In this document: positions 21,001 to 27,000 of the stretch, one piece after another
Position numbering within the stretch: the first letter of the stretch is position 1
How the letters are laid out: every line of letters starts with the position of its first letter
Assembly (NCBI GenBank): GCA_043817075.1
Contig: JBDRHG010000004.1
Span: forward strand, 109,767-173,766
Source of the DNA: an archaeon
GTDB lineage: Archaea; Nanobdellota; Nanobdellia; Woesearchaeales; JAADFO01
Length of the DNA: 64,000 nucleotides
Direction of reading: 5' to 3'
Program-made: the position numbers

Positions 21001-24000
21001 GCAACCGTTCTCAGGCCATCGAGCATGTGATCACGACAGCCATCGGCGAGCAGCGAGACGCGGTCATCCTCTGCGGCGGTAAGGAAGACAATTGGGGGAT
21101 CGGTGCGGGCATGTACCGGATGACAGCCATCGTGGGTAAGGAAAGCGTCATCGAGCGCGCGGTCAAGAAGCTGCGCGAGAACGGTTTCCGAAGGATATTC
21201 TTCGTCGCGCGGCACAAGATTCTCACCAAGATCTTCGAGATCCTCAAGGACGGCAGCGACTATGCGGTCAGCATCCAGTATGTCGAGGAGAAGGCCGGCC
21301 AGGGCACGGCTGACAGCCTACGTATCGTCAAGGGCATGCTATCATCAGCGTTCCTGGTGGTCTATGGTGACATCATCTTCGACGATATCAGCATCGAGAG
21401 CCTTTGGGCGGCACATCTCCGCAATCGTTCTGTGGCGACGCTGATGCTGACGACCAGCAACAAGCCTTCTATCAAAGGGACCGCAAAGGTCGAGGGCAAC
21501 AAGGTGCTGGAGTTCATCCAGAAGCCCAAGGAGAGCGACGTCTATCTGGTGTTCTCGCCCATCTTCGCTGTCGAGCCTGAGATCTTCAACTATGCGGGCC
21601 ACGTCCTTGAGACTGATGTCTTCCCGGTGCTGGCGACGCGGGGACTGCTCGCCGGCCATCTCAGCTCCGAGAAGGAATTTCATATCCATTCGCTGCGCGA
21701 CGCCAAGCGGGCAGAGTGATTCAGGACTACGGATTCTTTGTTTTCTTTGTCTGATATGGTGGAATTCTATTATTTGCTATATTGTAATTATATACCGCAA
21801 ACCTTAAAAACGCTTCCTCATTATCCATCATTGACGGCCAAAGGGGCTTGGTGCTACCGGTACCCATTTCGAACACCGCAGTCAAGCAAGCCTCCGTTCC
21901 GCTAAGTACTGTACTTTGTACGGGAACTGCGGAAAGCTGTCACCTTTTTTCATGGTTCTCTTCAGTTTCTCTCTTATGGAGAGTGTTATGCGATCAGACC
22001 AACATCTGCCATCCAGGCGTCTGTTGATATCCATCCACGACGTCACGCCGAAGTACGCTGCCGAGACAGAGCAGCTGATACGCCTGCTCCAGGACCGAGG
22101 CATCAACCGTTTCTCCCTTCTCGTCACCCCGGATTGGCTCGGCAAGTGGCCGCTCAAGAAGTCGCCCGCATTCCTCAAGCTCCTCCAATCATGCGAGAAG
22201 AAAGGTGCGGAGCTCGTGCTCCACGGCCTCGACCATCAGGAACCGCGATCCGTCTTGGCGAGCCCTTCCGAGAAACGCCGCCGTCTCAAGAATGCTCTCG
22301 ATCTGTTTGTTGACGCCTTCGGCCACCCTCCGGTCGGCTATGTCCCGCCGGTGTGGATGATGGACACCGTGATGGGTAGATTGCTGAGGGAATCCGGCAT
22401 GCAATACACCGAGAATCATTGGGGCTTCTACTGCTTCGACGGCCGGACCTATCGCGGGTTTCCTATCGGCATGGAGAGCGCATCGAACGAGGCGCTTTTC
22501 CCCTACGACCGCCTCAGTCCGCTCTTTTCGCGTTGGTTCTCCAAATTCTACGCAAGACTCAAGTGGAATCGTCCTGGCGTCGTCCGCTACGCGTTGCATC
22601 CCCGCGAGATACATAACGGGAACCTCGAGGCGACGTCCTCCCTTCTCGACGGCTTCCTTAAGCGCGGCTGGGAACCGGTATGCTATAACTGTTTCATTTG
22701 ACGAATTCGACATCTTCCATTTCTTCAAATTCTTTGTCGCCGGTGAGGAATGGGACTTGCATGTTTCTTGCGATAACATATCCGATGCAGTCGATATAGG
22801 AAAGCTTTTTTTTTCGCTGATTGAACCTGAACAAACTAGCCTCTTTGAATGTCTCATCGTTGATGTCGATGCAGAAAGGCACGAACTGATCGTAGTGTTT
22901 ATCAGCTCGTCTCTTGCCACCGATCCGAAGCAGACTCTGATGCATCTCGAGAATCTGGAGCCTGGTTGTGATCATCCTGCAATCCTTGATGAACTTAAAA
23001 TATTCTGGATTTCCGTCTAATATTTCCAATAGGGCGTATGTATCATAGAAATAGGTCTTGGCAGTCACTCAATCCCATCCTTTTCTCGCTTCATCCTTGA
23101 GTTCCTGAGAAGACACGCCGAGTTTGCAGGACCCGAAGATTTCAGAGAAATCCACGATAGGCGCGATCTCAATCCAGAGTTTTTGATTCTTCTTCAAGCC
23201 TTTCTCCTCCACGAATGATTTGGGGAGCACGATGCCCAATGATGAGCCCCATTTTCTCACGACCGCTTCGATTGCCATTGCTTCACCAGTTAATTATTTT
23301 CAAATTATATTAAATATAATTATCTTTTTATATCTTTTGGTACAGCAATGGAAAAAAGAAAAGAATAAACAAAACAAGCCCTATCATTTCTCTGCCGGTT
23401 CCTCTTCGGTCTCGTCGCCAGGCTCGCTCTCCATGACGACCTTATAGTATTCCACCGGCTTGATGTCGGTGATCATGGTCTTATGCACCATGTATTTGCC
23501 GTCCTTGCTCTTCTGGATGCGCGTCTCCACGATAGGCATCTTGCGGAGCTGGTCTTCTTTCTTGTCGCTTAGTCCCATTGTCATACCTCCGATTACGATG
23601 GGTTTTTGAATCGACGGCAAGGATTAATGTCTATTCCTCCGTTTCCCGGAAGTGTTCTGGCGGGTATGTCTTTTCGGATGGTTATGCAGAAATCGTCCGT
23701 CTATTCGACGCTGAGGCGGAATCTCTCCGCTACAATTTTACGGTGATGCGTTTTTCCTTGGTGTCGAATTCGACGATATTCTCATGGCCTTTGAGCCGTT
23801 CCTTGATCTCGACGAGCGATAGTTTCTTCCTGGCCTTCTTGATCTCCTGGAGATATCCTTCGAGCTCCTTGTAGCGTTCGTAGATGAGATTGCCGATGGC
23901 CTCGTTCTCCTCAGCCCCGTCAAGCATCGTCTTGACGGTCTCCTCCTGCTGGTGGATGATACGGCGGAGCTCCTCGACCTTGGCGTTGCGTTTCTTCTCC

Positions 24001-27000
24001 ACCCCTTCGGTCTGGGTCGTTCTGACCTCTTTGCCTATCACCTCTTCGAGCGCGGCAGAGAAGCTCTCAGCCTTCTCCGTCTCGTGCGGCAGGCTCTCGA
24101 ACGGGAAAGGCAAGGCGTCCTTGAGGGTGTCGTCTTCCCTGGTCACGAGCGGTGATAGCTTCTGGTCGAGCGCATGCTTGAGCGCGTGCCAGATGCGCTT
24201 GGTCTCGCCGGCGTCAGGAGTATTCTTGGCCTTGTCCACCTTTGCGCGCGCCAAAACCTCTTCGGCGTACAATCCTCCCATGCCGATCTCGATCGCCAGC
24301 GTCTTGACCACTGAGTCTCGTTCGGAGTTCTCCAGAGCGGCGATGAATCCTTTCTCATCCATGGCCGACAGGTCGTTCTTGAGGTCGGGTAGCTTGTATT
24401 CCGTCCCGCCGCGTAGCGTCCTTCCACCCCATCGTTTGGGTGAGAGCAGCGAGATGATCTTATCATTGTCGTCGCATAGCACGACATTGCCTGGTGGGAG
24501 AAGCTCGATGTAGAGATGATACTTGTTCTCCTTGGTCTCGAACTCCAATTTGATGATACGTTCGAAACCGAGCTGGGTGACCTTCCTGACCCTGCCGCCG
24601 GAGAGGCTCTTCCGTAGTTTCATGCAGAACTGGGGTGGATTCTCCTCGCTCTCGTATCGTTGAGCAGAGAGGAAAAGCATAGACGGCAGCCGTACAGAGA
24701 GTATCTGCTTTCCCTTGCCTGTGACATGTATGGCGAAGTAGAATACGTCTTTGCCTATCTGGTAGATCTTCTGGACCTTGCCGTTCTCGAGCACTTTGAG
24801 CTCAGAGAGCAGGCAATGGATGTCGAATGATGAAAGCTGGCGCATAGGAAGAATAAAGATGGACTCATATTTAAATGTGTCAGCAGAATCATTCTTTTCT
24901 CACCGCACCGAGCAGATGGACGGTGTGGCCCATCTTCATTCCATATTCGTTCAGGATGAGCGCGTCGTTTGCACTGACTTTCTGTCTCCTGATGAGGTTC
25001 TTGAGCTCCTGTCCATATTCTCCTGTGATGGGCAATCGGACGCCTGCTTTTTCGATAAGCGTATGCACCTTATCGACCGGATAGTATTCGAACTCCGTAC
25101 CGGTCGTCCTTTCCCATGCTGCGTATCCTCCTGCGGTCTCTTCGAATTCTGTCTGCTCCTTGAATGATGTGCTCAGCTCTTCCATCCGATACCCGGTCAC
25201 ATTGAAGAGGTTCACCATTTGTTCCCATGGCATGCGTCCTCCGAGATTGAGCATGGTCATCCTTCCGGGCTCGAGGACCTTTTTCATGGATTCCAGATAG
25301 ACGTATTGGAATGCGAGGAGGTATCTGCAGCAATCGATGTTGACAGGTGAAGTGAGACGATCCCATCTCTGGAAGGTCGAACCTGCGATCCCCATCGATG
25401 TGTCCACATCATGGTCGGGCAGATGGGGGATGTTTGCGTACGCGACGTCGGTGGTGATACCTCTCCTGATGAGCGGTTCCGCATCATATCCTGCTTCGTG
25501 GATGATTCTGACATTGTTGTCCCGAATGTTCATGAATACGTTCTTCGAAGCCGGTTCAGAAAGACGTTCATCTCCGTCTGTGATCACGATTGTCTCAGGG
25601 GATATGCCTGCTTCTTTCGCGAGGTGATAGAGGATGATGCCGTCGAGGCCATTGCTCGAGCCGGTGCATGTGATGGTCTTGACAGGCAAGCCTCGTTCTC
25701 TGTAGAGCCGGAACATCTCTCGGAAGCCAGGTATTGCGTGATCGAGCCAGTTGAGTTCCAGCTTCTCCTTCACAGGATACATATGGTCGGTGAGGGTCAG
25801 CACGATGGGGTATTCGGTCTTGATGTCGTGTTTCTCGAAGAGGGATGTGATGTCTTGCCGTCCAGTCATGATTCACGTAGAAGAGGTGAAAGAATATTGA
25901 ATTTTACCCAGATATATCTGAGTCACATAATCGTCTTTTTGGCGACCGTATGTATGAGTTTGTTCTCTGCCTTGAGGAGGTGCTCGCCGACCGTCGCGGT
26001 GCTCAATCCCAAAGCTTTGGCCATCTCCTCGATCGTCGTCTTGCGGGGCGATTCGAAATATCCTTGGTCGAAAGCGTAGGAGAACACTTTCTTCTGTTGC
26101 TTGGAAAGGAGGGTGTGGGCGAAATCGACTTTCCCAATGAATAGGACCTTGAGTTCTCCCATTGATGCGAGTCTCTTTCTCATCGGCTCGATATTCTTCC
26201 GATCAAGCACACCGACATGCCAATACTCATATCCTCCGACTACGGTGTGGAGGTCGATGAAGAATCCATGATATTCCTGGATGACATTCTGCACATATCC
26301 TGTCTGGTAGAGGACGACGAGGAGAAGAAGGGTATCGCTGGATCGCTCGATCTCTTTGACCATCTTGTAGGTCTTGGTCTTCTTGAGATAATCGACGATC
26401 CCGCAAAAACTTTCTAGGTTGCCAGAGATGTAGTACAGGTATTGTTTCTCCTTCGGATTCTTCGACTGGATATCGATGACGGTTATGTGATGTTGGGGGA
26501 ACTTAAGAGACAGACCTGTCTCAGAGCAGTCCTTGTGTCGAACCTTGAAGCTGAACTTGAACATGCATCTCTAGAAGACAATTTACATATTTAAACCCTT
26601 CACTTCTTCGTCACTTAAAGCGATGGATTCTTCAGCCCGTCCACGAACTCCTTGATACGCGCAAGCCCTGTCGAGATATCCTCCTCAGAGGACGCGTAGC
26701 TGATGCGGACATGCCCTTCGCGGCCGAAGGCAGAGCCCGGCACCACCGCCACCCGCCCGACCTCGAGCAATCTCTCGCAGAAAGCCACCGAATCAGGCAT
26801 CTCAGAGAACAGCAGTTCAGAGATATCAGGGAACACATAGAATGCCCCCTGCGGATTCGGACATTTGATCCCGGGAATCGCGTTGAGCCCTTTGACGATC
26901 AGATCGCGGCGCTTCATGAAAGCCTTTTTCATCACGACGACGGTCTCTTGCTGCCCGTTCAGCGCTTCCGCCGCCGCCTTCTGGGCGATGGAGCAGGGAT

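What a model noticed while it worked through the whole genome (the two positions that open the first line are those of the whole stretch)
23730..24845. Two-piece Rqc2/aRqcH across Woesearchaeales
The ribosome-rescue factor aRqcH ends after NFACT-N and the first coiled-coil arm (371 aa); in relatives the NFACT-R half is a separate distant gene. Alanine tailing in this order would need a heterodimer whose coiled coil is formed by two chains. A split RQC factor has not been described functionally.
Evidence so far: 27 of 31 genomes match; open frames 256-408 aa, none near the ~670 aa of intact aRqcH. NFACT-R found in 15 of 15 near-complete order genomes in frames of 256-316 aa (one 479); intact 611-aa frame in G053 of another order; G019 halves at 592.8 kb and 174.5 kb.
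(Added by a program. Inside this text positions count along the whole contig: contig position 109,767 is position 1 of the stretch shown here. "Call 12" and the like, gene names such as g00115 and contig names such as C1 are that model's own, and its searches are not shown. The text may have been shortened before it was handed on; [...] marks where a part breaks off. The agent that wrote the report below was given it as the finding of a first reader that could run no searches.)

Follow-up and report, generated by a model that had tools for sequence, protein, structure and literature searches.

The report
Split ribosome-rescue gene that re-fuses
This gene encodes only the front half of the ribosome-rescue protein RqcH; relatives carry the back half as a separate gene and the two halves are predicted to snap together, a split already listed for Nanoarchaeum under an older name that runs through this whole order and has likely been reversed by re-fusion in a sister order.

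Summary
Confirmed. Window 23730-24845(-) is an intact 371-aa gene for RqcH positions 1-376 of 645. In the order, 149 of 151 genomes match and none reaches the full-length cut-off. The cut is one beta-turn in the middle (M) domain, not the end of the first coiled-coil arm. Both halves keep the tRNA- and ribosome-contact motifs, and a cognate pair is modelled as a heterodimer (0.68 vs control 0.00; may reflect solved single chains). This bin lacks the C-half.

The split is known. Nanoarchaeum NEQ438/506 is arCOG01695 = COG1293 = RqcH, and NEQ506 starts at the same residue. This scan reported it before on other DNA (7 notes).

Not found in papers or earlier notes: in a sister order 11 genomes read rqcH-N, cysS, rqcH-C in one run, and single-chain copies nest among split ones (AU p=0.00025), i.e. 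likely re-fusion. A conserved 64-aa orphan gene often follows the N-half. Tailing is inferred; I found no archaeal test of it.

The parts
23730..24845 (-). rqcH-N: N-terminal half of archaeal RqcH/Rqc2 (NFACT-N, HhH, coiled-coil arm a, most of the M domain), 371 aa
24558..24563 (-). E95-R96, equivalent of B. subtilis D97/R98 (tRNA anticodon contact); E in 35 of 36 and R in 36 of 36 N-halves
24498..24506 (-). E114-L115-L116, equivalent of B. subtilis E121/I122/M123; E in 36 of 36
23871..24059 (-). Coiled-coil arm a (about residues 263-325, bounds approximate), predicted to pair with arm b of the separate C-half
   Evidence: alignment to the model; interface
23733..23750 (-). Last beta-strand (residues 366-371) at the cut; predicted to pair with the first strand of the C-half
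23730..23732 (-). TAG stop at the conserved fission point (M-domain beta-turn)
23390..23584 (-). Conserved unnamed 64-aa gene 145 bases downstream on the same strand; linked to rqcH-N in many relatives; role unknown

Best explanation
The gene encodes the N-terminal half of archaeal RqcH, and it likely works as one chain of a two-chain ribosome-rescue factor: its coiled-coil arm and last beta-strand are predicted to pair with the first strand and second arm of a separately encoded C-half, rebuilding a factor that would bind stalled 50S-peptidyl-tRNA and would add untemplated tails, probably alanine. Shown: the half gene, the constant cut, separate C-half genes in relatives, kept motifs. Predicted: the heterodimer. 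Inferred from B. subtilis: the N chain reads the tRNA anticodon loop, the C chain grips the A-site finger through NFACT-R, and the shared M domain touches uL11. Inferred: this organism has a C-half that the bin missed. History, inferred: one old fission, with cysS lying between the halves in a sister order, dispersal of the halves in this order, and later re-fusion in two or three lineages.
For: (1) Constant cut: 26 of 36 N-halves end at 388-392 and 41 of 54 C-halves start at 389-393 of a 648-aa intact protein, the turn between strands 383-388 and 391-396 of its model (pLDDT 92; best fold matches NEMF 9gy4, yeast Rqc2 8aaf, RqcH 7aqc). Only 2-3 turn residues are lost. (2) Both halves are kept together: 51 of 61. 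(3) Motifs: R96 and E114 in 36 of 36; D and H of the NFACT-R DWH motif in 54 of 54 (sets are best-scoring hits). (4) Complex of the cognate G094 pair (N 255-375, C 1-70): 0.68, best of 3 controls 0.00; runs agree in at least 94% of contacts, partner pLDDT at least 81; the mark was reached by 116 of 157 solved and 2 of 215 mismatched pairs; the interface is the coiled coil plus strands N368-375/C1-11. Halves of a split gene tend to pass by likeness to solved single chains. (5) In the sister order the halves lie in one same-strand run around cysS in 11 genomes. (6) Single-chain copies nest among split ones: 99/96 and 98/94, 97/91, 98/94 and 98/97; split-as-one-clade rejected, AU p 0.00025; both halves agree; they share an M-domain deletion with their split neighbours. 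(7) Pelota is in the bin.
Against: The C-half is not in this bin. No archaeal tailing experiment turned up. The D of the DR motif is E in 35 of 36, and the W of DWH is V or I in 54 of 54, though intact archaeal copies vary the same way. B. subtilis RqcH opens its coiled coils like scissors during the cycle, which would strain a non-covalent joint. NFACT-R survives without any N-half in families f133, f139 and f157, so it can persist alone. 116 of 157 sister-order genomes show no match at E 1e-20, so the factor is dispensable there. Pth2 was not found in the bin. Against re-fusion: the linkers of the putative re-fused copies look like the ancestral turn in length, and the base of the larger tree is unresolved.
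Confidence: 0.7

Rival explanations
1. The halves have parted: the C-half acts alone as an RNA- or ribosome-binding protein (like solo NFACT-R proteins CCDC25/Jlp2) and the N-half as a separate tRNA-binding protein.
For: The genes are unlinked in this order: 0 of 80 named C-half loci have an N-half within 4 kb. Solo NFACT-R is kept without an N-half in f133, f139, f157. Solo NFACT-R proteins exist in eukaryotes (PMC4075521 passages). This bin has only the N-half.
Against: Both arms and the paired strands are kept at full length in the paired genomes, whereas the solo NFACT-R genes have lost the normal strand-plus-arm start. Co-occurrence 51 of 61. Complex model. Linkage and likely re-fusion in the sister order.
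Confidence: 0.13
2. The heterodimer forms and binds the large subunit but does something other than alanine tailing: it adds other residues, or only marks or blocks stalled 50S subunits.
For: D-to-E change in the DR motif; no RqcP-like factor is known in archaea (PMC8373112 passage); Pth2 not found in the bin; no archaeal tailing data found.
Against: R96 and E114 are invariant; tailing is shown for bacterial and eukaryotic members.
Confidence: 0.14
3. The two genes give one chain after all, by protein or RNA trans-splicing.
For: Trans-spliced tRNAs exist in Nanoarchaeum.
Against: No intein-like extension: N-halves stop right after the strand and C-halves start with Met at the next strand.
Confidence: 0.02
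4. The short gene is a pseudogene or an assembly break.
For: The partner is missing from this bin.
Against: The same cut across more than 100 families; the gene lies inside a 254-kb contig; the stop is read in another run; halves lie 418 kb apart on one contig in G015.
Confidence: 0.01

Closest known systems
Split 'Predicted RNA-binding protein' of Nanoarchaeota, NEQ438/NEQ506 and Nst1_176/Nst1_251 (Podar et al. 2013, PMC3655853 Table 1)
   Same: Same family: Nst1_176 and _251 are arCOG01695 = COG1293, COG1293 = RqcH. NEQ506 (P0049) is a 255-aa stand-alone protein matching NF041120 383-644 and starting at the same residue as the C-halves here.
   Different: The paper gives no function and calls the split specific to Nanoarchaeota from two genomes. 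It has no order-wide census, cysS-flanked arrangement or re-fusion. NEQ438 was not retrieved by name; that it is the N-half is inferred.
Single-chain RqcH (B. subtilis, PDB 7as8/7aqc), yeast Rqc2 (8aaf), human NEMF (9gy4), archaeal RqcH NF041120
   Same: Same domains in the same order once the halves are added, same tRNA- and ribosome-contact motifs.
   Different: Two genes, cut in the M-domain hairpin that touches uL11; function untested in archaea as far as I found.
Other split information-processing proteins of Nanoarchaeota and DPANN (AlaRS alpha/beta, reverse gyrase, Dph1/2)
   Same: Fission into unlinked genes whose products are thought to reassemble (split AlaRS from the search listing).
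   Different: Here the cut is fixed across a whole order of free-size genomes (0.6-2.7 Mb), and an intervening gene and reversals are visible.
Solo NFACT-R proteins CCDC25/Jlp2 (eukaryotes)
   Same: NFACT-R without NFACT-N.
   Different: The archaeal C-half keeps a complementary strand, arm b and the archaeal C-terminal domain, and co-occurs with an N-half.

Membership tests
NFACT family (RqcH/Rqc2/NEMF) | NFACT-N plus HhH domains | tested here: met
NFACT family (RqcH/Rqc2/NEMF) | Coiled coil with M domain, NFACT-R and C-terminal domain in the same polypeptide | tested here: not met
   Stops at profile position 376 of 645; the rest is a separate gene in relatives. It is a half of a member, not a full-length member.
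NFACT family (RqcH/Rqc2/NEMF) | tRNA-contact motifs D97/R98 and E121/I122/M123 | tested here: met
   E95-R96 and E114-L115-L116; conservative D-to-E change
NFACT family (RqcH/Rqc2/NEMF) | NFACT-R D-W-H motif in the C-half | tested here: inconclusive
   D and H in 54 of 54 relatives, W replaced by V or I as in intact archaeal copies; no C-half in this bin
NFACT family (RqcH/Rqc2/NEMF) | Binds large-subunit-peptidyl-tRNA and adds C-terminal tails | not testable with these tools
   needs biochemistry
NCBIfam NF041120 archaeal RqcH equivalog | Score of 400 bits or more | tested here: not met
   273 bits; the G094 halves score 244 and 327 separately
Split arCOG01695 of Nanoarchaeota (NEQ438/506 type) | Same family (arCOG01695/COG1293) | tested here: met
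Split arCOG01695 of Nanoarchaeota (NEQ438/506 type) | Same cut site | tested here: met
   NEQ506 begins in the same alignment column as order C-halves
Split arCOG01695 of Nanoarchaeota (NEQ438/506 type) | Both halves present in the genome | tested here: inconclusive
   C-half not found in the 89.9% complete bin; both present in the same-family genome G094
Split arCOG01695 of Nanoarchaeota (NEQ438/506 type) | One shared origin with the Nanoarchaeum split | tested here: inconclusive
   Deep nodes unresolved and long-branch rows unstable
Split intein / protein trans-splicing | Intein segments at the cut ends | tested here: not met
   No extensions at either end

The most novel reading that the evidence does not exclude
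RqcH was cut in two when cysS landed in its M-domain hairpin in an ancestor of these DPANN orders; the rqcH-N, cysS, rqcH-C run is the surviving scar; the two chains have since worked as an obligate heterodimeric tailing factor; and the gene has re-fused independently two or three times by loss of the insert. The linked 64-aa orphan could be the missing archaeal helper of RqcH.
Probability: 0.3. Interest if true: 0.65.

Novelty: new variant of a known kind. Interest (0 to 1): 0.42.

Why it matters
It gives a function to a split gene listed for Nanoarchaeum years ago and shows that the cut is fixed across a large archaeal order, so length-based annotation (NF041120 cut-off) calls RqcH absent in all of them. 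Two separately made chains would let the tRNA-selecting arm and the ribosome-gripping arm be swapped and tested apart, a handle on whether and how archaea tail stalled proteins. The cysS-flanked run and the nested single-chain copies show the probable cause of a gene fission and its reversal in one data set, which bears on whether DPANN split genes are ancestral or derived. The core split is not new, which caps the score.

Tried and rejected
Finding the C-half in the bin: none; the genes beside the C-half in G094 have no close match in the bin either, which fits a missing contig but proves nothing. Public runs held at most a tenth of the words and gave only short pieces, no evidence on expression or habitat. 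'Open frames' of 1101, 756, 667, 1345 and 1088 aa in the genome-search tables suggested in-frame RqcH-CysS fusions; translation showed separate genes in those five genomes; the 528- and 529-aa frames of G210 and G158 were not followed beyond L050, where the C-half is 271 aa. A release-factor-like (VLRF1, recalled) reading of the GGFAQ segment fused to NFACT-R in f139: no Pfam support, Atlas hits under 0.9 pointing to NFACT_N; left open. cysS beside halves in this order: 0 of 80 named C-half loci (4-kb flanks), and none among the own-order loci with 1.5-kb flanks. A search meant to reach another phylum returned the same phylum. The 64-aa protein: no Pfam, NCBIfam, Atlas or fold match (best Z 2.5); this shows neither novelty nor absence. 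The promoter scan is bacterial-type and uninformative. The careful N-half tree did not finish; the quick tree was used.
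Full report
Observation. Window 23730-24845(-) is an uninterrupted 371-aa gene. 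It matches Pfam NFACT_N (E 3e-50), NCBIfam archaeal RqcH NF041120 over positions 1-376 of 645 (273 bits, cut-off 400) and, by sequence, solved RqcH and NEMF chains. The bin (1.52 Mb, 26 contigs, 89.9% complete) holds no NFACT-R and no second NF041120 match; a profile of 54 C-halves run over all six frames, contig ends included, gave nothing better than E 3.1. One 171-base contig of another run spans the stop codon without difference.

Spread. Of 151 genomes of the order (at least 80% complete, own included), 149 match NF041120, none reaches the full-length cut-off and 137 have two or more matches; the 150 listed matches cover either about 1-380 or about 380-645, and 155 were not listed. These counts, those, and one row of the N-half set (L084) include the unpublished genomes G105 and G124; no conclusion depends on them. 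In a fully listed phylum sample, 51 of 61 genomes have both halves as separate genes, 1 the C-half only, 1 an intact gene, 1 a solo NFACT-R and 7 nothing (counted by eye). All 80 named loci found with the C-half alignment hold a stand-alone C-half, none with an N-half within 4 kb. Intact genes occur in other orders of the class (G151, G195, and 9 of 9 genomes of the order of G198). Kin are not independent, so these are descriptions, not tests.

Where the cut falls. From the 100 loci then held I took 36 N-halves and 54 C-halves, dropping one duplicate, four solo NFACT-R genes and two contig-end fragments; they are best-scoring hits, so conservation is biased upward. Against an intact 648-aa protein (G198), 26 of 36 N-halves end at 388-392 and 41 of 54 C-halves begin at 389-393; I read the others as alignment slips. 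The AlphaFold model of that protein (pLDDT 92; top fold matches NEMF, yeast Rqc2, B. subtilis RqcH) has arm a at 270-331, M-domain strands at 374-378, 383-388 and 391-396, and arm b at 401-460. The cut is the turn between the last two strands. So the N chain carries NFACT-N, HhH, arm a and most of M; the C chain carries one M strand, arm b, NFACT-R and the C-terminal domain.

Function. In B. subtilis, D97/R98 and E121/I122/M123 of NFACT-N bind the tRNA anticodon loop, the DWH motif of NFACT-R and the distal CC-M/uL11 contact hold RqcH on the 50S (bioRxiv 10.1101/2020.09.03.281279 and PMC8373112, passages). The window protein has E95-R96 and E114-L115-L116; R96 and E114 are invariant in 36 of 36, position 95 is E in 35 of 36; D and H of DWH are invariant in 54 of 54 C-halves and W is V or I, as in intact archaeal copies. 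The cognate G094 pair (N 255-375 with C 1-70, each with an alignment) scored 0.68 against a best control of 0.00; runs agreed in at least 94% of contacts, partner pLDDT at least 81; that mark was reached by 116 of 157 solved and 2 of 215 mismatched pairs; the interface is the antiparallel coiled coil plus strands N368-375 and C1-11. Halves of a split gene tend to pass by likeness to solved single chains, so this shows compatibility, not binding, and the window's own partner could not be modelled. Pelota is in the bin; Pth2 was not found. Tailing is inferred from bacterial and eukaryotic members only.

Is the split known? Yes. Podar et al. 2013 (PMC3655853; passages and supplement rows seen) list a split 'Predicted RNA-binding protein', NEQ438-506 and Nst176-251, same site. 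Supplement file 2 assigns both Nst genes to arCOG01695 and file 6 equates it with COG1293; COG1293 is RqcH. P0049, named NEQ506 by its source, is a 255-aa protein matching NF041120 383-644 and starting in the same column as the C-halves here. C-halves named Altiarchaeota start there too (P0093, P0153, P0163). I found no paper that names the split gene as RqcH or reports it in Woesearchaeota: searches (listings and abstract starts), and passages of PMC4075521, PMC6514570, PMC6349945, PMC8407392 and the 2026 Nanobdellota preprint (no Rqc or NEMF in its main text; its supplements were not seen). The library lacks most subscription papers. Seven of the eight earlier scan notes shown describe this split on other DNA; the eighth is an rqcH-pelota pair.

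What is added: a sister order. In the order of G174, 41 of 157 genomes (at least 85% complete) match at E 1e-20 and 116 do not. I fetched 22 regions, not all 41 genomes. Eleven genomes read rqcH-N, at most one other gene, cysS, rqcH-C on one strand: G174, G242, G247, G262, G266, G270 and G416, G441, G454, G455, G457, from eight families; in G174 the genes overlap at their ends. cysS is Pfam tRNA-synt_1e; in G247 it is itself interrupted by an endonuclease gene, and the G457 N-half has one internal stop. Five more have N followed by cysS (G175, G245, G279, G360, G368), one has cysS then C (G244), and G402 has the halves linked without cysS. A short pilin-like gene (label recalled, no Pfam hit) precedes the N-half or the intact gene in most. 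Five genomes have a single-chain gene at this locus type: G248, G267, G280 (f154), G417 (f135) and G384 (f130), all over the NF041120 cut-off. A word search of earlier notes found no such arrangement.

Re-fusion. In separate trees of the halves f154 falls among split sister-order genes (SH-aLRT 91 for N, 96 and 99 for C). In a 27-row tree of both parts with the M-domain columns removed and two long-branch genomes (G151, G176) left out, f154 is sister to split G245 (99/96) and then G242 (98/94), and holding all split rows together is rejected (AU p 0.00025, two changes; the group is defined by the trait, but I had seen the trees first; model LG+G4). With 33 rows f154 stays nested (97/91, 98/94), G417 is sister to the split f135 pair (98/97), G384 is unplaced, the base is unresolved and four changes are needed. 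f154 also shares an M-domain deletion with its split neighbours. The alternative, an intact ancestor, needs cysS to enter the same turn many times. Against re-fusion, the linkers resemble the ancestral turn in length. I put re-fusion at least once at about 0.8. That cysS insertion caused the original fission is less sure (about 0.45): the run could be a later clustering, and no cysS lies beside halves in this order (in the bin cysS is on another contig).

Side lead. A 64-aa gene at 23390-23584(-) follows the N-half. It is found in 59 of 151 order genomes, and in 26 of these 59 it lies downstream of the N-half on the same strand within 5 kb (read by eye). It has no family, Atlas or fold match. 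It may be a partner or mere synteny.

Verdict. Real, conserved, a two-gene form of a known factor; the split is published under an older name and was seen before by this scan. New are the census, the cysS-flanked arrangement and the likely re-fusions. Interest 0.42.

Noticed in passing
window 23390-23584 (-): Unnamed 64-aa gene (helix, beta-hairpin, helix; pLDDT 73) in 59 of 151 order genomes; downstream of rqcH-N within 5 kb in 26 of 59. No family or fold match.
   Followed up: partly
L204, L206-L210, L248-L252 (sister order): rqcH-N, cysS, rqcH-C in one same-strand run in 11 genomes, often after a pilin-like gene.
   Followed up: yes
L181-L183, L254:1792-3450, L255:1537-3348: Single-chain RqcH of 553-604 aa nested among split genes, likely re-fused.
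   Followed up: yes
L057:1726-2448, L193:1387-2121, L194:1783-2544 (family f139): NFACT-R fused to an unknown 115-aa N-terminal part with a GG-x-x-Q-like segment; no N-half found in these genomes.
   Followed up: partly
L058:1408-2238 (-), L059, L060 (family f133): Solo NFACT-R genes, one fused to a NUDIX domain, with no N-half match.
   Followed up: partly
   Followed up: no
window 17543-19504 (-): A 653-aa NAD-dependent epimerase/decarboxylase-like ORF with a long internal insert that looks like an intein with a homing endonuclease (read by eye, label recalled).
   Followed up: no
window 24889-25869 (-): 326-aa ORF 43 bases upstream of rqcH-N with no Pfam or NCBIfam match.
   Followed up: no
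G065, G090: Two order genomes, 99% and 95% complete, with no RqcH match at all: possible loss of both halves.
   Followed up: no
C-half loci L006-L052 and L101-L180: A YjeF-type NAD(P)HX repair gene often neighbours the C-half (12 of 54 loci); an RsmB/F methyltransferase or a kinase often neighbours the N-half.
   Followed up: no
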